From assembly GCA_965220175.1 (NCBI GenBank), contig OZ244814.1, positions 300,992 through 364,991 of the forward strand: a DNA stretch of 64,000 nt, given 5' to 3'. The DNA comes from Chloroflexota bacterium. GTDB taxonomy: Bacteria > Chloroflexota > UBA11872 > VXOZ01. The position numbers and the translations under genes were made by a program. Shown piece after piece: positions 2,325-62,907 of the stretch. The notes beneath the pieces are model-generated. The model did no database searches. It was not told the DNA's origin and saw only the letters and a program-made list of their open reading frames with translations. Numbering within the stretch: the first letter of the stretch is position 1; every line of letters starts with the position of its first letter.

Positions 2325-2410
2325 ATTGTGTCGCGCTTGACTTCTGCTGCCGGAGACCTAGGTGCTTCTAAGCCAATCTCAACTCCGCGTGATGCTGAAA
2401 GGAACCGTCC

Positions 2411-3472
2411 GTGCCGATTGTCACCGCTGATGCCTTGCGCCAAATCGGCCGGGAGTTCTTTATTGCCTTAGGCTGTCTTCCTGATGACGCTCAGATTGTT
2501 GCCGACCACCTGGTGCAGTCGAGCCTCTATGGGCACGATTCCCACGGCATTCTGCGCATGTACGAGTATGCGGACGCCGTGAGCGAAGGACGCGTCCACC
2601 CCCAGAATGCGCCCGAGATCGTAAGCGAAAGCCCGTGCACGGCGGTGATCGACGCCAACGACGGCTTTGGACAAGTGGGCGCGACTCTGGCCGCCACCAT
2701 GGCGATCGAAAAGGCGCGGCAACACGGGCTGGCGAGTATCACCTTGCGCAGAGCAAGCCACATCGGCCGGGCGGGAGAATACCCCGCCATGATCGCTCGC
2801 GCCGGACTGATTGGCACGGCCTACGTCAACTTCGGTCGCTTGGGCATTCAGGTGGCGCCCTTTGGCGGCATTGACGGCCGCCTGGCGACGAATCCGCTGG
2901 CTTTCGCCGCGCCCCGCCGCGACGCTCCGCCCATCATGGTGGACATGACGACGAGCACCGTCGCCGACGGCAAGATCCGTTTGGCTACCAATCTCGGGAA
3001 GCCGCTGCCGGAGGGTTGGATCCTTGATGCGGACGGCAAACCCAGCACGGACCCGCACGACTACTTTGCCGAGCCGCGCGGGGCAATCCTGCCGCTGGGC
3101 GGCCCGCTCGGCCATAAGGGCTACGCGCTGTCTATGATGGTGGAACTCTGCGCCGGGGGCCTGAGCGGTCAGGGCATGGCTTCCGGCGACCCGCGAGCGC
3201 CCGCCAATGCCTTCCTGCTTACCGCCTACAACATCGAGCACTTTACGGACATGGAATTCTTCTACGAAGAGGTGGAAGCCCTGGTCGGCCACGTCAAGTC
3301 GAGCCGCACCGCGCCGGGCGTGACGGAGATACTCTTACCCGGCGAGCCGGAGTTTCGCACCGAGCGTGAGCGCAAACAGTCGGGCATCTCCATCGACGAT
3401 ACCACCTGGGATAGGGTCTGCGCCGCGGCGCGTGACATCGGCCTCGATCCAACTTCCTGGGATTTCGCCTGA
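2411..3472 (+). CDS. Ldh_2 family (malate/L-lactate dehydrogenase family 2) NAD(P)H-dependent oxidoreductase, paralog 1
   Basis: GTG start with AAAGGA RBS. Conserved DSHG, HIGRAGEYP, FGGIDGRLATNPLAFAAP and GGPLGHKGYALS blocks typical of the ureidoglycolate / sulfolactate / pyrroline-2-carboxylate reductase family. Its antisense ORF 2468..3292 is judged spurious. Confidence 0.85.
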   Translation: MPIVTADALRQIGREFFIALGCLPDDAQIVADHLVQSSLYGHDSHGILRMYEYADAVSEGRVHPQNAPEIVSESPCTAVIDANDGFGQVGATLAATMAIEKARQHGLASITLRRASHIGRAGEYPAMIARAGLIGTAYVNFGRLGIQVAPFGGIDGRLATNPLAFAAPRRDAPPIMVDMTTSTVADGKIRLATNLGKPLPEGWILDADGKPSTDPHDYFAEPRGAILPLGGPLGHKGYALSMMVELCAGGLSGQGMASGDPRAPANAFLLTAYNIEHFTDMEFFYEEVEALVGHVKSSRTAPGVTEILLPGEPEFRTERERKQSGISIDDTTWDRVCAAARDIGLDPTSWDFA

Positions 3473-3490
3473 TGCCAAGAGGAGCCGCCT

Positions 3491-4555
3491 GTGCCTACCG
3501 TCGCCGCTGACACTTTGCGCCGCATTGGGTACGCCTGCTTCGAGGCCTTGGGCTGCCGTGCGGATGACGCGCGCATAGTCGCCGATCACCTGGTGCAATC
3601 CAACCTCTTCGGCCATGATTCCCACGGTGTAACCCACATTGAACGGTATGGCCGCGCCGTGTGGGAAGAGCGGCGGGTTGATCCGCAAGCCGTGCCGGAA
3701 GTCGTGCGTGAGCACCCTTGTACGGCAGTGGTGGACGCGCATCATGGGTTCGGCCAGGTGGGCGCGACCTTCGCAACCGAGCTCTTGATCAAGAAGGCGC
3801 AGCAGCACGGTGTCGCCAGTGTCGCATTGCGCAACACAAGCCACATTGGCAGGGCCGGCGCGTACCCACTGATGGTGGCGCGGGCCGGCATGATCGGGCT
3901 GGTCTTCGTCAACGCCGGTCGGATGGGTTTTCAGGTCGCGCCGTTCGGCGGCATCGACGGCCGCCTGGGCACAAATCCGCTGGCCTTTGCCGCGCCGCGC
4001 CGCGCACACGCGCCGCTCTTTGTGGACATGAGTTCCTCAACCGTCGCCGACGGCAAGATCTATCTCGCCGCTAATCAGGGCAAGCCGGTGCCTGAGGGCT
4101 GGTTCGTCGACGCGGACGGCAACCCCAGCACCGACCCGCATGCGTACTTTGAAGAACCGCGCGGGGCTGTGCTCCCGCTGGGCGGGCCTCTAGGGCACAA
4201 GGGGTTTGCGTTGAGCATGCTGATGGAGATCTGCGGTGGAGGGATGAGCGGCCAGGGCATGTCTCAAGGCGACATGCGCGTGAGCAGCAACGGCGTACTC
4301 ATGACCGCCTACGACATCGCCCAGATCGGCGATGTGGAGTTCTTCTATGACGAGGTAGAGGCCCTTGCGCGCCACGTCAAGTCAAGCCGCACGGCGCCCG
4401 GCGTAGACGAAATCCTGCTTCCCGGCGAACCGGAATACCGCGCCGAGCGCGAGCGGACACAAGCGGGCATCCCCATTGACGACACCACGTGGGAGAAGCT
4501 CTGCGCGGCTGCGCGGCACCTCGGCTTGGAACCGACTGCCTGGAAACTCTGCTAA
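3491..4555 (+). CDS. Ldh_2 family oxidoreductase, paralog 2
   Basis: GTG start with GAGGAG RBS, 18 nt after paralog 1. Same conserved blocks. About 75% identical to paralog 3 by eye. Confidence 0.85.
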   Translation: MPTVAADTLRRIGYACFEALGCRADDARIVADHLVQSNLFGHDSHGVTHIERYGRAVWEERRVDPQAVPEVVREHPCTAVVDAHHGFGQVGATFATELLIKKAQQHGVASVALRNTSHIGRAGAYPLMVARAGMIGLVFVNAGRMGFQVAPFGGIDGRLGTNPLAFAAPRRAHAPLFVDMSSSTVADGKIYLAANQGKPVPEGWFVDADGNPSTDPHAYFEEPRGAVLPLGGPLGHKGFALSMLMEICGGGMSGQGMSQGDMRVSSNGVLMTAYDIAQIGDVEFFYDEVEALARHVKSSRTAPGVDEILLPGEPEYRAERERTQAGIPIDDTTWEKLCAAARHLGLEPTAWKLC

Positions 4556-4656
4556 GGTGAAGTCGCGAACCTGAGTGGAATGCCGCCTCGTACGCGTCCG
4601 GCCAAGACTAATTTCCTGCTCAGACTTGACTGGTCCAACGCCGAAAGGAGCCGTTT

Positions 4657-5721
4657 GTGCCTACCGTAACCGCTGAAGCCCTGCGCCGCATTGGCTACGC
4701 CTTCTTTGAAGCGCTGGGCTGCCGACCGGATGATGCCCGCATCATTCAGGACCATCTTGTCCAGTCCAATCTCTACGGCCATGACTCCCACGGCGTGGTG
4801 CGCATGGAGCAGTACTGGCACGCCGTGCGGGAAGAGGGTGTGGTTGACCCGCAAGCGGCGCCGGAAGTCGTGCGTGAACACCCGTGCACCGCGGTCGTGG
4901 ACGCGCATCACGGCTTCGGTCAGGTGGGCGCGGTGTTTGCCACGAAGCTCTTGATAGAGAAGGCGCAACAGTACGGCATCGCCAGTGTCTCGCTGCGCAA
5001 TACGAGCCACATCGGCAGAGTGGGCGAGTATCCGCACATGGTCGCGCAGGCCGGCATGATCGGGCTGATTTTTGTCAATGCGGGGAGGCTGGGCTTTCAG
5101 GTCGCGCCCTTTGGCGGTATCGACGGCCGGCTGGGCACGAATCCACTCGCATTTGCCGCGCCGCGGCGCAACGATCCGCCCTTTTTCGTGGACTTGACGA
5201 CGTCCACCGTCGCCGACGGCAAGATCAAGATAGCCGCTAACGAAGGTAAGCCCTTGCCCGAGGGCTGGATTGTCGATGCGGATGGCAACCCCAGCACGGA
5301 TCCCAGCGACTACTGGGACGAGCCGCGCGGGGCTGTGCTGCCGGTGGGCGGCCCTTTGGGACACAAAGGCACTGCGCTGAGCATGCTGAATGAGATCTGC
5401 GGCGGCGGATTGAGCGGACAGGGCATGTCGGCCGGCGACATGCGAGTGGACAGCAACGGCGTGCACATGACCGCCTACGACATCGGGCAGTTTGTGGAGC
5501 CGGAGTTCTTCTATGACGAGATCGATACGCTCATCAGCCACGTGAAAACCAGCCGCCCGGCTGCCGGCGTGGACGAGGTCCTGGTCGCCAGCGAGCCGGA
5601 GTACCGCGCGCAGCGTGAGCGCGAAAAGACGGGCATCCCTATCGACGAAACGACGTGGAGCAAGCTCTGCGACGCTGCCCGCGACCTGGGATTGAAACCG
5701 GATACCTGGGTACTGGCCTAG
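4657..5721 (+). CDS. Ldh_2 family oxidoreductase, paralog 3
   Basis: GTG start with AAGGAG RBS. Same family blocks. The 409-aa antisense ORF 4552..5781 is judged spurious. Confidence 0.85.
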   Translation: MPTVTAEALRRIGYAFFEALGCRPDDARIIQDHLVQSNLYGHDSHGVVRMEQYWHAVREEGVVDPQAAPEVVREHPCTAVVDAHHGFGQVGAVFATKLLIEKAQQYGIASVSLRNTSHIGRVGEYPHMVAQAGMIGLIFVNAGRLGFQVAPFGGIDGRLGTNPLAFAAPRRNDPPFFVDLTTSTVADGKIKIAANEGKPLPEGWIVDADGNPSTDPSDYWDEPRGAVLPVGGPLGHKGTALSMLNEICGGGLSGQGMSAGDMRVDSNGVHMTAYDIGQFVEPEFFYDEIDTLISHVKTSRPAAGVDEVLVASEPEYRAQREREKTGIPIDETTWSKLCDAARDLGLKPDTWVLA

Positions 5722-5803
5722 AACGGAATTGGTAGACTTGGGTCTAGACCGTGGAGAAATGAAATTAGACGTATGAACCAACGTCTAAGGTGGGTCCTCG
5801 GAT

Positions 5804-5900
5804 CGTCATTCTGAGGAGCGGAGCGACGAAGAATCTCGAATCAGGAGCTCTTTAGATTCCACGAACCGTGTTCGACGAACCCCGTTCGACGCTGAGCTTG
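5804..5900. repeat. Intergenic hairpin repeats (family E GTCATTCTGAGGAGCGGAGCGACGAAGAATC plus partial family B CGTTCGACGCTGAGCTTGG)
   Basis: Reverse-complement copy of the family E core at 25491..25523. The family B motif recurs at 8931..8990, 18497..18575, 19849..19986, 27203..27264 and 58753..58810. Confidence 0.6.
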
Positions 5901-5981
5901 GAGTGACAGGAAACGACTCCCTCAACGCTACCAAGTCTATTGCTACTAAGTCCGGCCTAGAAGACTCTTGCGCTAGAAAGG

Positions 5982-7052
5982 ATGCCGGTTGTGCCGACTT
6001 TCACAGCAAATACCTTGCGCCGCATCGGCGAAGAATTCTTGATCGCCCTGGGATGCCGTCCAGCAGACGCGCAGCTTGTGGCCGATCACCTTCTTCAGTC
6101 AAACCTCTTCGGCCATGATTCCCATGGTGTTTTGCGTTTGTATGAATATGCCCGCGCCGTGCATGAAGGACGCCTCGATCCCTTGGGTTCGCCGGAAATC
6201 GTGAGCGAACACGCTTGCACGGCGGTCGTGGACGCGCACGACGGCTTCGGCCACGTGGGCGCGGCTCTGGCAACCAAGCTGGCGATCGAGAAGGCGCGGC
6301 AGCATGGCTTGGCAAGCGTTTCGCTGCGCCGCGCGAGCCACATCGGCCGGGCGGGAGCGTATCCCCTGGTGATGGCCCAGGCAGGCATGCTCGGTGTGGC
6401 CTACGTCAACTCCGGCCGCATGGGATTCCAAGTAGTGCCGTTCGGCGGCATCGACGGTCGCCTTGGCACCAATCCGCTGGCCTTCGCCGCGCCCCGCCGC
6501 GCCGACCCGCCCATCATGGTGGATATGACGACCTGCACCGTTGCCGACGGCAAGATCCGCGTGGCCACCAATCTCGGCAAACCGCTGCCGGAGGGCTGGA
6601 TCATCGATAAGGCAGGCAATCCCAGCACGGACCCGCAAGTGTATTGGGAGGAACCGCGCGGCGGAATCTTACCTCTCGGCGGTCCGCTCGGGCACAAGGG
6701 CTATGCGCTCAGCTTGATGATGGAACTCAGCGCCGGCGGGCTGAGCGGACACGGCATGTCTTCGGGCGACATGCGCTCACCCGGCAACGGTGCGCTGTTC
6801 ACCGCATACGACATCGCCCACTTCACTGACCTGGACTCCTACTACGACGAGGTTGAGGCCATGGCAAGGCACGTCAAGTCAAGCCGTCCCGCGCCGGGCG
6901 TGACTGAGATATTCCTGCCCGGCGAGCCGGAGTTCCGCACGGAGCGCGAGCGTAAGCAAACAGGCATCTCCATTGACGAGACTACATGGGCAAAGCTCTG
7001 CGAATCCGCTCGCGAACTGGGCCTGGATCCTGGCGCTTGGTGGAATCCGTAA
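5982..7052 (+). CDS. Ldh_2 family oxidoreductase, paralog 4
   Basis: Same family blocks. Most similar to paralog 1. The start may be the in-frame GTG at 5991 rather than ATG at 5982. Confidence 0.8.
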   Translation: MPVVPTFTANTLRRIGEEFLIALGCRPADAQLVADHLLQSNLFGHDSHGVLRLYEYARAVHEGRLDPLGSPEIVSEHACTAVVDAHDGFGHVGAALATKLAIEKARQHGLASVSLRRASHIGRAGAYPLVMAQAGMLGVAYVNSGRMGFQVVPFGGIDGRLGTNPLAFAAPRRADPPIMVDMTTCTVADGKIRVATNLGKPLPEGWIIDKAGNPSTDPQVYWEEPRGGILPLGGPLGHKGYALSLMMELSAGGLSGHGMSSGDMRSPGNGALFTAYDIAHFTDLDSYYDEVEAMARHVKSSRPAPGVTEIFLPGEPEFRTERERKQTGISIDETTWAKLCESARELGLDPGAWWNP

Positions 7053-11062: not shown

Positions 11063-11300
11063 GTGTGCGCTCCTTCTCCATTCGCGTGCGGTCGTTTGAG
11101 TCAGTGTACCGTACGCCCTAGGCATTGTCACTCGTTTCCGATGCCTATAGTTTGCAGCACCTCACCAATCCAAGTAGACGGCAGTCAGCTCTGACTAGGA
11201 CTTGCTCTGAACTGCTGCGCCGCAAGCGGACAGTCGCTCAAACGCCCTCTCGGCTTCTAGACTTAGGCCCTCGAAAGCAGTGGTCCAAGGCGATCTCAAT

Positions 11301-29835: not shown

Positions 29836-29987
29836 GTGTGGACTCCTCTTCTATTACGCGTCCCTTACCCGCCTATTCTACAATGCACGGGATTGAGTGA
29901 AGCGGAATCGCCGCTTACGGCACTCCCAGCGCGGCTTGAAGCAATCGACTTCACTGTTTGCGACTAAGGCGCGGAATTAGACGCGTA

Positions 29988-30452
29988 GCGCGGGGGCTTG
30001 TCCTCCGCTCCGCCATTTAGAATAAGGAACGACACCTATCCGTCACTCCGGCGGAAGCCGGAGTCCAGGGCACGCGGGCCCGGAATAAAGATGGATTCCC
30101 GCGTGCGCGGGAATGACGGTCTGACGGCGCAGATTGCAGTACCGCCTTCTATTCACCGTATCGCGGGGGCTTGTCCTCCGCTCCGCCATTTAGAATAAAG
30201 AACGGCACCCATCCGTCACTCCGGCGAAAGCCGGAGTCCAGGGCGCCCGCGGCAGGAATGAAGATGGATTCCCGTTTTCGCGGGAATGACGGTCTGACGG
30301 CGCAGGTTGCAGTGCCGCCCAATCTTCACCGTAGTGCGGGGGCTGATCCACCGTATCGCCATCAAACCAAACCACGGAACCTTTCCGTCACTCCGGCGGA
30401 AGCCGGAGTCCAGGGCACTCGCAGCAGGAATGAAGATGGATTCCAGCATGCA
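29988..30452. repeat. Tandem array (about 2.7 copies of a ~175-bp unit) of family A composite hairpin repeat
   Basis: Units start at about 29988, 30163 and 30335. Each contains CGCGGGGGCTTGTCC, CCGTCACTCCGGCG(G/A)AAGCCGGAGTCCAGGG, GATGGATTCCCG(C/T)(G/T)T(G/T)CGCGGGAATGACGG and GACGGCGCAG(A/G)TTGCAGT. ORFs called inside it (29998..30198, 30171..30476, 30190..30375) are artefacts. Confidence 0.85.
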
Positions 30453-30615
30453 GACCTCTCTATTGTGGTGGGTTGAGCTACTCGCTGTCTTAATCATATG
30501 ACTGGCTGTCTTTTGAAAAGTCAACGCAACCTAGTATAGTGATACCCACAAGCGACAGGGCGCCACCACAAAAGGGGCCTGAGTTTCAGCTTTGGAGTGT
30601 GGGTGGGGCGTCAAT

Positions 30616-31884: not shown

Positions 31885-32079
31885 GTCACATGTATGCCGC
31901 CCTCCTACCCAACAAACAATGAAAGATGGCGGGGCGGCGTAGGGGCACGATATATCGTGCCCCTACAAGATAATGGATGGCGGTAGTAAAACCAAAGACG
32001 ATACATACCTGAACCGATTGAAGATGGAATAGGCAGTTTATGAGGCTCAGGTTTTGTTCCCTCTCCTGGGGGAGTGTAT

Positions 32080-33335
32080 AGACCGGGTTGATGGGTAACA
32101 CTTGTTCGGGCTGATAGGTTACACCTAAAGGCATGGAGAATCTTGCAGCAGGAGGATGGCCATGCCGTGGAAGGTGGAAACACTTATGTCTGCTCGGGAA
32201 GAATTTATCGCTCTGGCACTGGCTGACGGGGCGAACATGAGTGAGCTGTGTCGGCGCATGGGGATCAGTCGGAAGACCGGGTACAAGACGCTGCGGCGGT
32301 ACGCGCAGAGTGGTGCAGACGGTCTGCAGGACCGGTCGCACCGCACGCACACGTGTCCGCACCGCACGAGCCGGGAGATGGAGGAACGCATCATCGCGTT
32401 GCGGCTGGCGCATCCCAAGAAGGGCGCGCACGTGCTGCGCAGGATGCTGCAAGACCAGGGGGTGACCGACGTGCCGGCCAAGAGCACGATCCAGGCCATG
32501 CTCAAGCGCAATGGCCTCATCGACCCTGCAGAGAGCGCCAAGCATACTCCCCAGGTGCGCTTTGAGTACCCTGCGCCCAACGACCTGTGGCAGTTGGACT
32601 TCAAAGGGCATTTCAGCATGCAGCACGACCGCTGCCATCCGCTCACGCTCCTGGACGATCATTCTCGCTTCAACCTCACGCTCCAAGCCTGTGCCAACCA
32701 GCGTGGCGAGACGGTGCAAGACCGCCTCACCACGGCCTTTCGCCGCTACGGCCTGCCCCAGGCCATGCTCATGGATAACGGCTCACCCTGGGGCAACGAC
32801 GCCGGTCAGCCCTACACGCCCTTCACCGTCTGGCTCATGCACCTGGGCATCACCGTGCGCCACAGCCGACCCTACCATCCCCAAACCCTCGGCAAGCTCG
32901 AACGCTTCCACCGCTCCCTCAAAAGCGAATTGCTGCAGGGCCGTACCTTCACCGACCTGGAGCACTGCCAACGCGCCTTCGACACGTGGCGTCATTTCTA
33001 CAACTTGGAACGCCCGCACTATGCCCTCGGCCTGGACACTCCCATCAGCCGGTACACGCCCAGTGCACGCTCCTTCCCCGAGACCCTGCCTGCCCTTGAA
33101 TACGACCCCGACGATCAGGTGCGCAGCGTCGACGTCTCCGGCCGCATCTCTTTCCAGGGCAGCAGGCTCCGTGTCGGCAAAGCTTTCACCCACAAACAGG
33201 TCGCACTGCGACCCACCCCAACAGACGGCGTCTGGAACGTGTACTTCTCAAGACAACGCCTAAAGTCCATAGACCTCAGAGAACAAAATGTGTAACCTAT
33301 CAACCCGAACATCTGTTACCTATCAGCCCAGTCTG
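32080..33335 (+). mobile_element. IS481-family insertion sequence (~1.25 kb) with ~40-bp imperfect terminal inverted repeats, inserted into a family D palindromic repeat
   Basis: Left end CCGGGTTGATGGGTAACACTTGTTCGGGCTGATAGGTTACAC pairs with the reverse complement of the right end CTGGGCTGATAGGTAACAGATGTTCGGGTTGATAGGTTACAC (36 of 42 positions). The flanks (CCCTCTCCTGGGGGAG on the left, CAGGGAGAGGGTTAGGGTGAGGGG on the right) are the two halves of a family D repeat. Confidence 0.75.
32156..33295 (+). CDS. IS481-family transposase (DDE integrase core)
   Basis: N-terminal HTH region followed by an rve-type integrase core (LWQLDFKG, MLMDNGSPW, RPYHPQTLGKLERFHRSL). Confidence 0.85.
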   Translation: MAMPWKVETLMSAREEFIALALADGANMSELCRRMGISRKTGYKTLRRYAQSGADGLQDRSHRTHTCPHRTSREMEERIIALRLAHPKKGAHVLRRMLQDQGVTDVPAKSTIQAMLKRNGLIDPAESAKHTPQVRFEYPAPNDLWQLDFKGHFSMQHDRCHPLTLLDDHSRFNLTLQACANQRGETVQDRLTTAFRRYGLPQAMLMDNGSPWGNDAGQPYTPFTVWLMHLGITVRHSRPYHPQTLGKLERFHRSLKSELLQGRTFTDLEHCQRAFDTWRHFYNLERPHYALGLDTPISRYTPSARSFPETLPALEYDPDDQVRSVDVSGRISFQGSRLRVGKAFTHKQVALRPTPTDGVWNVYFSRQRLKSIDLREQNV

Positions 33336-33396
33336 TACAGGGAGAGGGTTAGGGTGAGGGGTCAAGAGGGACTATACGTACACTGAGAAGGTACTT

Positions 33397-41586: not shown

Positions 41587-41781
41587 CCGTCGCTCCGGCG
41601 AAAGCCGGAGTCCAGGGGTGGGGCGGGTGGAGTGTCCGGTAGACGCGAGATGAGGTGGGCACTCCTTGCAAAGCGGTGGATGGATTCCGCGCCCCCGCGC
41701 GGGGGCGAGCTCTCGCGGGAATAACGGGCGAAATCAGCCCCCTCACCTGGGCCTCTGGATTCCGGCTTCCGCCGGAGTATC
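41587..41781. repeat. Family A composite repeat (module 1, module 2, inverted module 1) immediately adjacent to the IS110 element
   Basis: CCGTCGCTCCGGCGAAAGCCGGAGTCCAGGGG ... GATGGATTCCGCGCCCCCGCGCGGGGGCGAGCTCTCGCGGGAATAACGG ... GGATTCCGGCTTCCGCCGGAGTATC. Confidence 0.8.
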
Positions 41782-41794
41782 TGTGTTAGAAGTC

Positions 41795-43105
41795 AAGTTA
41801 ATTTAGGGACCTGCAGCAAGGTAGTCCTGCCACGGTGTGCCGCGCCGGACGATGGCGTTGAGTTGCAGGAGCATTTTGCGCATTACCGCCACCAGGGCGA
41901 CTTTGCCCGGCTTACCCCGCTGGCGCAGACCTTGGTAGAAGCGCTGCAGGCTGTTGTCCTGGCGGATAGCAGACAAGGCGGCGAGGTAGAGAGCGCGGCG
42001 CACGACGCCCCGGCCGCCGCGGATGGCGCGATAGCCGCGCTGCTGTCCGCTGTCCCGTGACCACGGTGCGAGACCTGCCAGCGCGGTCAAGGCCTTACCG
42101 GAGAGCTGACCGAGTTCGGGGAGGAAGGCGGTGAGGATGGCGGCGGTCAAGTCGCCGACGCCGCGCATGCTGCCGAGCAGTTGGGCGCGCTGGCGCAGGT
42201 GCTGGCTGCGCTGCAGGGTCGCTTGATACTGCTGGTCCAGCCGTTCTATCTCCTTATCCAGCCAGCGGATGTGGCGTGTGACGGAGCATTGGCTAACGGA
42301 GGAGAGGCCTTTGTCCAGACGGTTCTGTTCCTGCACACGTTGCTTGACGAGTTGCTGGCGGCGCTGCAGCACATCTTGGAGCTGTTCACGTTCCGGGGAG
42401 GGCGCCGGAAGGTCCTCCAGCGCCATCACAGCGCCGTACCGGGCGAGCACCTGCGCATCCAGGCGATCGGTCTTCGCTTCCTTGCCACAGGCGCGGGCAA
42501 AGGCCCGCACCTTGTTGGGATGCGCCACCTCCACTGAGGGCAGCGCCGTGTGCAGACGCTTTACCACTTGGCGCTCATACCCGCCGGTCGGCTCACACAC
42601 TGCCACCGTGACGCCTGCAGCTTGCAGCCAACGCACCAGGGCGGTGATACCCACCGTGGTGTTCGCGAAACGCCGCACGGGGCCGCCCGCTACCGACACA
42701 TCGAGTTGCGCTTTCCCAACATCGATCCCTGCCACAACTTTCATCCCGCTCTCCTTCCTGGCATACTGGTGGTGTCCTCCACACTTGCAGATGCGGGCCA
42801 TTGGTCTGCCCAGGTATCTGTTCGGAGCGACATTCTGGCGCGAGGGGTGTCGTACTCCGGCGCGATGCAGCCAGGCCACTGCCTCGGCTCACCTAATGAC
42901 GGACGACGCGCCCCTCGCGTTGCCACTCAACTTCGCTCATTTGCCCGCCTTTTTCAACATACAAATGACGGAAAGAGGAGCGCGCGAGGCCTTGCAAGTG
43001 CGAATCGACAGCAGATTCTGCCAACGAATTACTCAACACTTGCACCAATGACCAAAACGTCAACTCTCCCTGTTGGAAGGCGATTCCATCAACGCATTGC
43101 ACAAC
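41795..43105 (-). mobile_element. IS110-family insertion sequence (~1.3 kb, approximate boundaries) flanked by family A repeat modules
   Basis: DEDD-type transposase gene inside. No clear terminal IRs, as expected for IS110. A family A half-module (TTCCCGCTTTCACGGGAATC) lies at 43113..43132 on the far side. Confidence 0.5.
41803..42744 (-). CDS. IS110-family transposase
   Basis: MKVVAGIDVGKAQLDVSV start with GGAAGGAGAG RBS. C-terminal region typical of IS110/IS1111 transposases. Confidence 0.85.
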   Translation of the reverse strand: MKVVAGIDVGKAQLDVSVAGGPVRRFANTTVGITALVRWLQAAGVTVAVCEPTGGYERQVVKRLHTALPSVEVAHPNKVRAFARACGKEAKTDRLDAQVLARYGAVMALEDLPAPSPEREQLQDVLQRRQQLVKQRVQEQNRLDKGLSSVSQCSVTRHIRWLDKEIERLDQQYQATLQRSQHLRQRAQLLGSMRGVGDLTAAILTAFLPELGQLSGKALTALAGLAPWSRDSGQQRGYRAIRGGRGVVRRALYLAALSAIRQDNSLQRFYQGLRQRGKPGKVALVAVMRKMLLQLNAIVRRGTPWQDYLAAGP

Positions 43106-43154
43106 ACTTCCCATTCCCGCTTTCACGGGAATCAACCCTTAAGGAAGCCGTCCG

Positions 43155-58655: not shown

Positions 58656-59085
58656 GGATGGATTCCGCGTCCCGGTTCGGGGCGAGCTAGCGCGGGAATA
58701 TCCATGGCCTTGTTCAGGCCGCGCAAGGGAATGAAAGTGAACGCACATCTCTCCGTTCGTGCTGAGCACTTCGGCAGGCTCAGTACGAGCTTGTCGAAGT
58801 ATGAACGGAGATAATAGGGTGCGGAGTTGCTACCAATGCTGTCGCACTAAGATTAGGGCGGTACGCCCGTTGGGTGCGCTCTGCCCCCTCTCCCTGGGGA
58901 GAGGGCCGGGCTGAGGGGAAATGGCGGGCGCAGGTTGCAAACCTACGCTACCGGGGACGTGTGGCGCGGTGTTCATTGCCACATCATTTAATGTGACAGC
59001 ATTGGGAGTTGCTACTCGCTACCTCCGCCGTTCACCCTGCGACGCTGCTCAGAGCCTGCCCCGTACCGGATACGGGGGCGAACGG
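58656..59085. repeat. Intergenic repeat cluster: family A module (58656..58702), family B (58753..58810), family D (58882..58917), family C (58929..58955 and 59050..59085)
   Basis: Each matches copies elsewhere in the window (see the other repeat entries). Confidence 0.7.
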
Positions 59086-62870: not shown

Positions 62871-62907
62871 TCCCCTCTCCCTGAGGGAGAGGGCTAGGGT
62901 GAGGGTG
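62871..62907. repeat. Family D palindromic repeat (CCCCTCTCCCTGAGGGAGAGGGCTAGGGTGAGGGTG)
   Basis: Copies at 58882..58917 and split around the IS481 element (32052..32068 and 33340..33365). Confidence 0.7.

What the first reader, a model, noticed from the sequence alone, without database searches (positions are those of the whole stretch)
32040..33370. IS481-family element inserted into a palindromic repeat; IS110 element likewise sits in a repeat cluster
The IS481 element (32080..33335, ~40-bp imperfect IRs) interrupts a family D palindrome. The left flank is ...CCCTCTCCTGGGGGAGTGTATAGAC. The right flank is GTCTGTACAGGGAGAGGGTTAGGGTGAGGGG.

Intact family D copies (CCCCTCTCCCTGAGGGAGAGGGCTAGGGTGAGGG) occur at 58882..58917 and 62871..62907.

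Separately, the IS110-family element (about 41795..43105) is bounded on one side by a full family A repeat (41587..41781) and on the other by a family A half-module (43113..43132).

IS110/IS1111 elements are known to target REP-like palindromes. This suggests the small repeats act as insertion hotspots here.
Basis: partly seen in the sequence, partly recalled or inferred. Interest (0 to 1): 0.5.

Follow-up and report, generated by a model that had tools for sequence, protein, structure and literature searches.

The report
Two insertion sequences that target small repeats
Two mobile elements in this window each sit inside the short repeat they prefer: an IS481-family element that, like about 50 relatives, splits a BoxC-type "triplex" repeat at one fixed spot, and an IS110 element whose own guide RNA spells out its REP-like target.

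Summary

**IS481-family element**
- It spans 32075-33339 (1,265 bp) with 50-bp inverted repeats and a 379-aa transposase.
- A 5-bp duplication (GGGAG) flanks it. Removing the element rebuilds CCCTCTCC-TGG-GGGAGAGGG-TTA-GGGTGAGGGG.
- This "family D" repeat matches the published BoxC/PIT/TM_ECO "intrastrand triplex" consensus.
- Of 63 full-length copies (the window plus 62 from at least 9 Chloroflexota genomes), 53 split such a motif. Orientations are 24 versus 29.
- The duplication nearly always falls at the junction between loop 1 and the central purine block.
- The motif covers only 0.5% of the flanking DNA.
- Relatives at 61-64% amino-acid identity and 287-bp MITE-like derivatives show the same target.

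**IS110 element**
The element spans 41776-42965.
- It is inserted inside a family A module (TCCGTCA / CT / CCGGCG...), not beside one.
- Its 5' leader has bridge-RNA target and donor loops matching those flanks. The loops co-vary with different targets in three other lineages.

**Novelty**
- REP-targeting insertion sequences and bridge RNAs are known.
- I found no report of an IS481-family clade targeting BoxC/TM motifs. The main TM paper reports no link to mobile elements.

The parts
32059..32069 (+). Left half of the interrupted BoxC/TM-type repeat: pyrimidine block 1 (CCCTCTCC) plus loop 1 (TGG)
   Evidence: Sequence read. Joined to 33340-33361 after removing one duplication copy, it matches the TM consensus.
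32070..32074 (+). Target-site duplication, copy 1 (GGGAG)
   Evidence: Identical to 33340-33344. A 5-bp direct repeat is the most common length among 63 copies (33 of 63).
32075..33339 (+). IS481-family insertion sequence, 1,265 bp, ends TGTA...TACA
   Evidence: Aligns end to end (positions 1-1265) with 62 copies in other genomes at 77-92% nucleotide identity.
32075..32124 (+). Left terminal inverted repeat (50 nt)
   Evidence: 86% complementary to 33290-33339.
32156..33295 (+). Transposase gene (379 aa; 377 aa if started at 32162)
   Evidence: NF033577 IS481 family transposase at 290 bits (cut-off 224), with rve, rve_3, HTH_32 and LZ_Tnp_IS481 domains.
33290..33339 (+). Right terminal inverted repeat (50 nt)
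33340..33361 (+). Right half of the interrupted repeat: duplication copy 2 (33340-33344) lies within purine block 2 (GGGAGAGGG), followed by loop 2 (TTA) and purine block 3 (GGGTGAGGGG)
   Evidence: 0 mismatches to GGGAGAGGGYTAGGGTGAGGG.
58886..58917 (+). Intact BoxC/TM-type repeat (CCCTCTCCC-TG-GGGAGAGGG-CCG-GGCTGAGGG)
62873..62905 (+). Intact BoxC/TM-type repeat (CCCTCTCCC-TGA-GGGAGAGGG-CTA-GGGTGAGGG), an exact fit to the TM_ECO consensus
   Evidence: Consensus taken from PMC4666352.
41776..42965 (-). IS110-family element including both core dinucleotides (CT at 41777-41776, TT at 42965-42964). The body 41778-42963 reads TGTATGTTG...ACACAGATA on the minus strand.
   Evidence: Limits come from comparison between copies in three related lineages.
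41803..42744 (-). IS110-family recombinase gene (313 aa)
   Evidence: NF033542 IS110 family RNA-guided transposase, 209 bits, cut-off 140.
42745..42963 (-). 5' non-coding leader encoding a bridge-RNA-like structure
   Evidence: conserved stems, with variable internal-loop segments that match the flanks.
42895..42903 (-). Left target guide, TCCGTCATT (5' side of the target-binding loop). It equals the top strand of the left target plus core.
42854..42862 (-). Right target guide, CGCCGGAGT (3' side of the loop). It is the reverse complement of A-CT-CCGGCG, the core plus right target.
   Evidence: It co-varies with the right flank in the L090, L094 and L123 lineages.
42814..42822 (-). Left donor guide, AACAGATAC, matching the element's right end ACACAGATA-C
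   Evidence: In L123 the guide is GACGGATAC and the right end is CACGGATAC.
42783..42787 (-). Putative right donor guide, CAAGT (reverse complement ACTTG, matching the junction A-CT-TG)
   Evidence: Read. This is the weakest of the four guide assignments.
42966..42972 (-). Left part of the split family A module (TCCGTCA)
   Evidence: Intact modules read (T)CCGTCAYTCCGGCG.
41752..41775 (-). Right part of the split family A module (CCGGCGGAAGCCGGAATCCAGAGG)
41587..41775 (+). Composite family A repeat whose last (inverted) module is the one split by the IS110 element
   Evidence: families D7, D9, D16.

Best explanation
The window holds two target-specific insertion sequences, each caught in its preferred multi-copy repeat. 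They use two unrelated mechanisms.

**(1) IS481-family element**
- The 1,265-bp element encodes a single DDE (rve) transposase.
- It is integrated with a 5-bp staggered cut at the boundary between loop 1 and the central purine block of a BoxC/PIT/TM-type repeat (CCCTCNCCC-loop-GGGNGAGGG-N3-GGGNGAGGG). Shown.
- This position is the normal target of the whole clade. The same holds for its MITE-like derivatives, which the same transposase presumably mobilises (presumption inferred).
- Both orientations of the element occur. Shown.
- I infer that the transposase protein itself recognises the GC-rich hairpin-forming arms of the repeat. I found no guide-like complementarity in the element.
- Whether the transposase reads duplex sequence or an extruded hairpin/triplex is not resolved.

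**(2) IS110-family element**
- The 1,190-bp element is integrated at a CT core inside the REP-like module TCCGTCA-CT-CCGGCG. Shown.
- Its 5' leader carries a bridge-RNA-type target loop that spells this site and a donor loop that spells its own ends. Shown.
- I therefore infer RNA-guided recombination as described for IS621.

**Consequence**
Inserting into abundant intergenic repeats gives both elements many harmless landing sites. This is an inference.
For: **IS481-family element**
- Ends, inverted repeats and duplication are established. Family assignment rests.
- 62 related full-length copies have ends that can be called precisely. Their flanks are printed.
- After removing one duplication copy, 49 of 63 sites reconstruct a strict TM motif. 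The duplication starts 10-11 nt into the motif.
- 53 of 63 sites carry both TM halves across the element, 24 in '+' and 29 in '-' orientation. 47 of 63 have exact 4-6 bp direct repeats.
- The sites fall in at least 51 distinct neighbourhoods.
- The motif covers 0.5% of 164 kb of flanks.
- The duplication stays 1-3 nt upstream of block 2 while loop length varies from 3 to 9 nt.
- Relatives at 64% and 61% amino-acid identity have TM halves on every readable flank.
- MITE-like derivatives of 287-288 bp sit in TM motifs with duplications of CCCGTC and CTCCC.
- The element shares no segment of 9 nt or more with the TM motif on either strand.
- Family D fits the TM_ECO consensus quoted in PMC4666352.

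**IS110-family element**
- Limits and flanks are established.
- The leader alignment shows TCCGTCATT and CGCCGGAGT placed between conserved stems.
- The right target guide changes together with the right flank. The pairs are CGCCGG/CCGGCG, TCTCAG/CTGAG, TACAGG/CCTGTA and GCGAAC/GTTCG.
- This layout equals the published IS621 rule: the 5' side pairs with the bottom strand, the 3' side pairs with the top strand, and the core is included (PMC11208160).
- The window has 11 sites within one mismatch of the 14-nt target, against 0.11 expected by chance.
Against: - No empty allele of either window site was found. The duplications and reconstructions are therefore inferred from intact paralogous repeats, not from an orthologous empty site.
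- Other copies in the window's own genome could not be examined. The exact proteins are not on record. The best relatives are 90% amino-acid identical (IS481) and 84-90% (IS110).
- 10 of 63 IS481 copies lack a complete TM motif. Two (L039, L040) show no repeat at all.
- 16 of 63 copies lack a matching duplication. This may reflect later rearrangement or mutation.
- The short-read contigs of the 61-64% groups are probably chimeric at the element, so their duplications are unreliable.
- How the IS481 transposase recognises the target is untested.
- No RNA data exist for the IS110 leader, and Rfam gave no hit.
Confidence: 0.85

Rival explanations
1. There is no targeting. The IS481 elements insert more or less at random. 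Copies survive preferentially in harmless intergenic repeat clusters, so the association is a product of selection.
For: Repeats are intergenic, and the flanks are repeat-rich. There are 25 further intact TM motifs in the 164 kb of flanks. Many sites have a second TM about 120-150 nt away.
Against: Selection cannot place the duplication on the same 5 bp of a 33-bp motif in about 45 independent sites and in both orientations. The motif covers only 0.5% of the flanks, so even within intergenic DNA the expected hit rate is a few percent, not 84%. The MITE-like derivatives show the same exact position.
Confidence: 0.03
2. The repeat halves belong to the mobile element, or are produced by it as footprints or carried ends. 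On this view the repeat is not a pre-existing target.
For: Almost every copy carries the halves, and some flanks beyond the motif are themselves repeated (for example L013, L019 and L031).
Against: Element-to-element similarity stops exactly at TGTA...TACA. The loop and spacer sequences of the halves differ from site to site just as they do in intact motifs (TTA, CCG, CTG, TTG, TCG). Intact motifs exist without any insertion sequence, both in the window and in bacteria such as E. coli, where no transposase is nearby (PMC4666352). The halves appear in either orientation relative to the element.
Confidence: 0.02
3. The IS481-clade transposase recognises a DNA structure (extruded hairpin, cruciform or intrastrand triplex) and not the duplex base sequence.
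For: Outlier copies sit at the same loop/3'-arm junction of hairpins with different arms: L035 and L051 (CCCCGTA-loop-TACGGGG), L041 (CCTTCCC...GGGAAGG) and L045 (hairpin without block 3). Relatives at about 50% identity sit at the equivalent point of unrelated GC hairpins: L066 (duplication CAGGG), L069 (GGGCAGAC...GTCTGCCC, duplication ATCGG) and L065. The motif folds as a stable DNA hairpin at -8.4 to -9.6 kcal/mol. TM_ECO oligonucleotides form triplexes in vitro (PMC4666352).
Against: In the main clade 51 of 53 insertions are on the tail-proximal arm, and only L015 and L018 are on the mirror arm. A purely symmetric hairpin reader would not give this. Stable triplex formation in vivo was not supported by footprinting in PMC4666352. 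The distant relatives are single examples. Sequence recognition that drifts with the host's repeat would look the same.
Confidence: 0.35
4. The IS110 element's match between leader and flanks is a coincidence of a repeat-rich region. Target choice is made by the protein alone.
For: The target is itself part of a palindromic repeat, so short complementary strings are common nearby. RNAalifold partly pairs the two guide segments with each other.
Against: Four lineages with four different right targets each have the matching 5-6 nt in the same loop position between invariant stems. The donor-loop segment tracks the element's right end (ACAGATAC versus ACGGATAC). The protein meets NCBI's model for IS110 family RNA-guided transposases.
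Confidence: 0.03

Closest known systems
IS1397 and ISKpn1 (IS3 family), which insert into palindromic units (REP/BIME) of enterobacteria
   Same: They are DDE (rve) transposases that insert site-specifically into a short GC-rich hairpin-forming intergenic repeat and make a short duplication. Target choice is attributed to the transposase (as summarised in PMC1525189). The IS3 and IS481 families are related; the window protein also hits the IS3 model at 117 bits, below its cut-off.
   Different: The family differs (IS481: a single ORF with no frameshift). The target repeat differs (BoxC/TM triplex-type motif, not REP/PU). The duplication sits at the loop/purine-arm junction. The hosts are Chloroflexota.
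REP-targeting insertion sequences surveyed by Tobes and Pareja 2006 (IS3, IS110, IS4, IS256 and IS5 families)
   Same: This is a 'type 1' association: the element interrupts the repeat in most or all of its copies.
   Different: IS481 is not among the five families listed. The repeat targeted here was not among those analysed.
BoxC / PIT element / TM_ECO intrastrand triplex motif (Holder et al. 2015, PMC4666352)
   Same: Family D fits the consensus CCCTCNCCC-N3-6-GGGNGAGGG-N3-GGGNGAGGG, including the TTA and CCG types of second loop.
   Different: That study found the motif not associated with transposons and saw no transposases near it. Here a transposon clade uses it as its landing site. Chloroflexota are not mentioned in that paper.
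IS621 and other IS110-family bridge recombinases (Durrant et al. 2024, PMC11208160); ISPpu9 and ISPpu10
   Same: The recombinase has DEDD and Transposase_20 domains. The element has no terminal inverted repeats and a CT core. Its 5' leader has target and donor loops whose 5' sides equal the top strand and whose 3' sides complement it. The natural target is a REP-like repeat.
   Different: The target sequence differs (TCCGTCA-CT-CCGGCG), as do the repeat family and the host phylum. Nothing here departs from the published mechanism.
IS481 of Bordetella pertussis
   Same: Same transposase family by NCBIfam, with TGT-type ends and a short duplication.
   Different: From my own knowledge, not tested here: IS481 prefers the short sequence NCTAGN with a 6-bp duplication, not a 30-bp structured repeat.

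Membership tests
IS481 family | Transposase matches the family model above its curated cut-off (rve DDE core plus N-terminal HTH/leucine zipper) | tested here: met
   NF033577 at 290 bits against a 224-bit cut-off. Pfam rve, rve_3, HTH_32 and LZ_Tnp_IS481 domains.
IS481 family | Single transposase ORF without the programmed frameshift of IS3 | tested here: met
   One uninterrupted 379-aa ORF at 32156-33295.
IS481 family | Terminal inverted repeats beginning TGT, element about 1-1.3 kb, short target duplication (family description from my own knowledge) | tested here: met
   50-nt inverted repeats reading TGTATAG...; element 1,265 bp; 5-bp duplication.
REP-targeting insertion sequences (type 1 association of Tobes and Pareja) | The element interrupts the repeat itself, in most of its copies | tested here: met
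   53 of 63 IS481-clade copies. 9 of 9 copies of the closest IS110 relative carry the same target flanks.
BoxC / PIT / TM_ECO motif | Sequence fits CCCTCNCCC-N3-6-GGGNGAGGG-N3-GGGNGAGGG | tested here: met
   62873-62905 fits exactly. 58886-58917 and the reconstructed 32059.../33340... site fit with 1-2 deviations.
BoxC / PIT / TM_ECO motif | Forms an intrastrand triplex | not testable with these tools
   Only the hairpin between blocks 1 and 2 can be predicted (-8.4 to -9.6 kcal/mol).
IS110 family bridge recombinases | Recombinase with DEDD (RuvC-like) and Transposase_20 domains | tested here: met
   (NF033542 at 209 bits against a 140-bit cut-off).
IS110 family bridge recombinases | No terminal inverted repeats; insertion at a short core sequence present on both sides | tested here: met
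   Ends read TGTATG... and ...CAGATA, flanked by TT/CT and CT. L095 and L098 have CT on both sides.
IS110 family bridge recombinases | Non-coding end encodes an RNA with two internal loops matching the target and the donor, co-varying with them | tested here: met
   four lineages, with the right target guide, left target guide and left donor guide all tracking their DNA partners.
IS110 family bridge recombinases | The RNA is expressed and bound by the recombinase | not testable with these tools
   No RNA data are available, and there was no Rfam hit in the region.
IS1111 subgroup of IS110 | Long non-coding end downstream of the recombinase gene (subgroup description from my own knowledge) | tested here: not met
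   Only 25 nt lie between the stop codon (41803) and the element end (41778). The 219-nt non-coding part is upstream.

The most novel reading that the evidence does not exclude
A widespread subclade of IS481-family DDE transposases has evolved to recognise the BoxC/TM 'intrastrand triplex' repeat, possibly by reading its non-B DNA structure rather than its sequence. This repeat is conserved across many bacterial phyla. These elements would then be a so-far unrecognised cause of the genomic instability reported around such motifs, and a natural protein-only system for integration at a fixed 30-bp site.
Probability: 0.25. Interest if true: 0.7.

Novelty: new variant of a known kind. Interest (0 to 1): 0.5.

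Why it matters
Insertion sequences that land in REP-like repeats are known, and the IS110 case here is a textbook bridge-RNA example.

**What appears unreported**
- An IS481-family clade is specific for the BoxC/PIT/TM motif. The function of this repeat has been debated since the 1990s.
- The most detailed study of the motif found no link to mobile elements (PMC4666352).

**If confirmed**
- It gives one concrete reason why loci with this motif are rearranged. Several copies here have mismatched flanks, as expected after recombination between elements.
- It adds a sixth family to the REP-targeting insertion sequences.
- It offers a compact protein-only transposase with a long, precisely positioned target. 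E. coli carries natural copies of that target, so the prediction is directly testable.

Tried and rejected
- **Exact-sequence look-ups of window proteins.** I tried both transposases, two start codons for the IS481 gene, and two neighbouring genes. None is on record, so other copies in the source genome and empty alleles could not be retrieved.
- **Metagenome scans for an empty site.** The left flank gave 0 hits. The downstream gene gave only a 41% relative and a fragment.
- **Rfam search over the IS110 region.** It returned only a chance IRES hit below threshold. The bridge RNA therefore had to be shown by alignment and covariation.
- **A fuzzy-regex search for extra inverted-repeat copies.** It timed out and I replaced it with blastn. 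There are no further copies or MITEs of this element in the window.
- **An RNA guide inside the IS481 element.** I considered and rejected this because the element shares no segment of 9 nt or more with the target on either strand.
- **The palindrome at 43113-43132 as the far side of the IS110 target.** Rejected. The element ends at 42965, and the true left half of the target is TCCGTCA at 42966-42972.
- **A fifth, more divergent IS110 lineage.** The look-up of P0035 returned one site seen in many samples, so it adds one lineage but no site statistics.
Full report
**The IS481-family element in the window**

A 50-nt imperfect inverted repeat (43/50) bounds the segment 32075-33339. It holds one 379-aa ORF at 32156-33295. 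The ORF carries rve, rve_3, HTH and LZ_Tnp_IS481 domains. It scores 290 bits on NCBI's IS481 family transposase model, against a 224-bit cut-off.

The element starts TGTATAG and ends CTGTACA. GGGAG lies immediately outside it on both sides, at 32070-32074 and 33340-33344. Removing the element and one GGGAG gives CCCTCTCC-TGG-GGGAGAGGG-TTA-GGGTGAGGGG.

The window holds two intact copies of the same motif, at 58886-58917 and 62873-62905. The 21-nt 3' half has three hits in the window and none in 100 shuffles.

**What "family D" is**

A text search for the two purine blocks led to Holder et al. 2015 (PMC4666352). That paper gives the consensus CCCTCNCCC-N3-6-GGGNGAGGG-N3-GGGNGAGGG for the motif called BoxC, PIT element or TM_ECO. 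The second loop comes in TTA and CCG types.

The copy at 62873-62905 fits this exactly, and the other two fit nearly. [quoted passage not shown] It states that the motif was not found associated with transposons and that no transposase remnants were seen near it.

**Test of the hotspot idea for IS481**

A scan of one genome per species returned 80 loci encoding relatives of the transposase. Of these, 62 align with the window element over all 1,265 bases at 77-92% identity, so their ends can be called to the base. They come from at least nine Chloroflexota metagenome-assembled genomes, mostly complete long-read chromosomes.

The flanks show the same picture again and again. They read either ...CCCTCTCC(C)-loop|IS|GGGAGAGGG-N3-GGGTGAGGG or the reverse complement of that.

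| Measure (window included, 63 sites) | Result |
|---|---|
| Both halves of the motif across the element | 53 of 63 |
| Orientation of those 53 | 24 one way, 29 the other |
| Exact 4-6 bp direct repeat | 47 of 63 (33 are 5 bp) |
| Strict intact motif after removing one repeat copy | 49 of 63 |
| Distinct neighbourhoods, judged 60-900 bp from the element | at least 51 |
| Share of 164 kb of flanking DNA covered by the motif | 0.5% (25 copies) |

Random insertion would give about 0.3 hits instead of 53.

**Position within the motif**

The duplicated pentamer is GGGAG or GGGGA, or their complements. It covers the last loop bases and the first bases of the central purine block. It starts 1-3 nt before that block whether loop 1 is 3 nt or 9 nt long. 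The site is therefore set relative to the purine arm, not relative to block 1.

Only L015 and L018 have the mirror position on the pyrimidine arm. L027 is 6 nt further in.

The outliers are informative:
- L045 is in a hairpin without block 3.
- L035, L051 and L041 are in hairpins with other arm sequences, but at the same loop/3'-arm junction.
- L039 and L040 show no repeat.

About a dozen copies have unmatched flanks. In some of them the two flanks come from motifs of opposite polarity (for example L021, L038). This is what recombination between two element copies would leave.

**How far the trait extends**

A protein search and contig look-ups gave two further groups. One is at 64% amino-acid identity from marine metagenomes (L104-L113). 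The other is at 61%, with a 1,529-bp element (L114-L122). Every readable flank in both groups is a half of a TM-type motif. These short-read contigs often join unmatched flanks, so I do not use their duplications.

At about 50% identity, single copies sit at the equivalent point of a TM-like hairpin (L066, duplication CAGGG; L067) or of unrelated GC hairpins (L069, L065).

Two 287-288-bp derivatives that keep only the ends of the element also lie in TM motifs with 5-6 bp duplications (L036, L017). The specificity therefore acts in trans.

**Mechanism for IS481**

- Shown: a DDE transposase, a 5-bp staggered target cut, a fixed position in a 30-bp repeat, both orientations, and the same behaviour for non-autonomous derivatives.
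- Inferred: the transposase itself reads the target. The element shares no string of 9 nt or more with the motif on either strand, so a guide is unlikely.
- Open: whether duplex sequence or an extruded hairpin/triplex is read.
  - The strong bias to the tail-proximal arm argues for sequence.
  - The outliers and distant relatives in other hairpins argue for structure.
- I put the structure reading at about one in three.
- Two rivals do not fit: selection after random insertion, and repeat halves being part of the element. The position is exact. Similarity stops at TGTA/TACA. Loops and spacers vary like those of intact motifs. Intact motifs exist without any insertion sequence.

**The IS110 element**

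The 313-aa product of 41803-42744 (minus strand) has DEDD_Tnp_IS110 and Transposase_20 domains. It meets the model "IS110 family RNA-guided transposase".

Its exact sequence is not on record. Relatives at 80-84% identity gave 9, 4 and 5 sites with usable flanks in three lineages. Comparison between copies places the limits 228 nt upstream of the start codon and about 25-45 nt past the stop.

The junctions read flank-(T)CCGTCA-TT-TGTATGTTG...ACACAGATA-CT-CCGGCGGAAGCCGGAATCCAG-flank.

Joined, the flanks give TCCGTCA-YT-CCGGCGGAAGCCGGAATCCA. This is the family A module seen intact at 2230, 13676, 30040, 30213, 30385 and 35984. The element therefore splits the last, inverted module of the composite repeat 41587-41777. 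It does not lie next to an intact one. The palindrome at 43113-43132 is unrelated to the insertion.

**Bridge RNA**

The aligned leaders have invariant stems. These enclose two variable segments:
- TCCGTCATT (42903-42895) equals the top strand of the left target plus core.
- CGCCGGAGT (42862-42854) is the reverse complement of A-CT-CCGGCG, the core plus right target.

This is the layout described for IS621. The 5' side of the loop pairs with the bottom strand over 8-9 nt. The 3' side pairs with the top strand over 4-7 nt. The core is included in both (PMC11208160).

The segments change with the target in the other lineages:

| Lineage | Guide segments | Flanks |
|---|---|---|
| L090 group | ACTGTCATT / TCTCAGAGT | CTGTCA-TT / CT-CTGAGG |
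| L094 group | TACAGGAGT | CT-CCTGTAAG |
| L123 (66% amino-acid identity) | CAGGCAACT / GCGAACAGT | GGCAA-CT / CT-GTTCGA |

A second loop carries AACAGATAC (GACGGATAC in L123). This tracks the element's right end, ACAGATAC (ACGGATAC in L123).

Rfam has no matching family, and no RNA data exist. The mechanism is therefore inferred from sequence, but the inference is strong. The window offers 11 sites within one mismatch of the 14-nt target, against 0.11 expected.

**Comparison with what is known**

- Targeting of REP-like repeats by insertion sequences is established for the IS3 (IS1397, ISKpn1), IS110, IS4, IS256 and IS5 families (PMC1525189). IS481 is not on that list.
- Searches combining IS481 with REP terms, "intrastrand triplex" with transposase, and BoxC with insertion sequence found nothing describing this association. 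The library lacks most subscription papers and ISfinder, so this is absence of evidence only.
- The IS110 part is a new member of a well-understood kind.
- The IS481 part is a new family-target combination within a known kind of behaviour.

**Limits**

- The source genome could not be searched.
- No empty allele was recovered.
- The taxonomic assignment of the window to Chloroflexota rests only on where the closest element copies occur.

**Verdict**

| Item | Verdict |
|---|---|
| Observation | Partly confirmed (IS481 exact; IS110 limits wrong) |
| Interpretation | Supported |
| Novelty | New variant of a known kind |
| Interest | 0.5 |

Noticed in passing
L044 (OZ244145) and L047 (OZ253463): The same orthologous TM motif is occupied in two genomes, with both flanks 95% identical over 840 bp. 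The IS481-type element is in opposite orientation and the duplication is almost the same (ATGGG versus GATAGG). This is either two independent hits on one site or an inversion in place between the 50-bp inverted repeats. L003/L046, L035/L055 and L048/L051 show the same kind of reversed pairing of neighbourhoods.
   Followed up: partly
L021, L038, L046, L049, L055 and others: About a dozen IS481-clade copies lack matching duplications. In some the two flanks come from motifs of opposite polarity, as expected after inversion or other recombination between element copies. This would tie the elements to rearrangements at TM loci.
   Followed up: no
L036:3436-3722, L017:2811-3098, also L030: MITE-like derivatives of 287-288 bp consist of little more than the two IS481-type ends (94-98% identical to the window's ends in L036). 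They are inserted in TM motifs with 5-6 bp duplications.
   Followed up: partly
L104, L106, L107 (left flank, about 20 nt from the element): A second, different IS481-family element (394-aa product, opposite strand) ends only about 20 nt away, inside the same TM-type motif. Two related elements therefore share one repeat copy.
   Followed up: no
L010, L013, L014, L019, L033, L043, L062 (about 115-150 nt upstream of the element): Many occupied TM motifs have a second, intact TM motif at a fixed distance, and the surrounding about 100 nt is itself repeated between loci. In these genomes the motif seems to be part of a larger doublet-type repeat unit.
   Followed up: no
window 42990-43050 (minus strand GTGCAAGTGTTGAGTAATTCGTTGGCAGAAT): Next to the IS110 element lies a copy of another repeat family (consensus about CCGTCATTCCTGTAAGTGTTGACTAATTCGTTGACAG). 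It also appears in the left flanks of L084, L086 and L088. In the L094-L097 lineage this family is itself the IS110 target, with a matching right target guide.
   Followed up: partly
window 29984-30500: There are three tandem copies (period 172-173 bp, 85-88% identity) of a composite unit. Each unit is built from a GTAGCGCGGGGGCTTGTCC palindrome, a family A module and a GGATTCCCGC...GCGGGAATGAC palindrome. Each unit contains an unoccupied IS110 target site.
   Followed up: no
window 2400-7000: Four tandem copies of a 1.1-1.3 kb segment (spacings 1083, 1166 and 1331 bp; 68-82% identity) look like an array of paralogous genes.
   Followed up: no
window 43113-43132: ATTCCC-GCTTTCAC-GGGAAT fits the pattern ATTCCC-N8-GGGAAT. 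From memory this resembles the Neisseria dRS3 repeat, which is itself a known landing site for mobile elements. Similar GGATTCCCGC...GCGGGAATGAC palindromes recur at 11298, 30084 and 30257.
   Followed up: no
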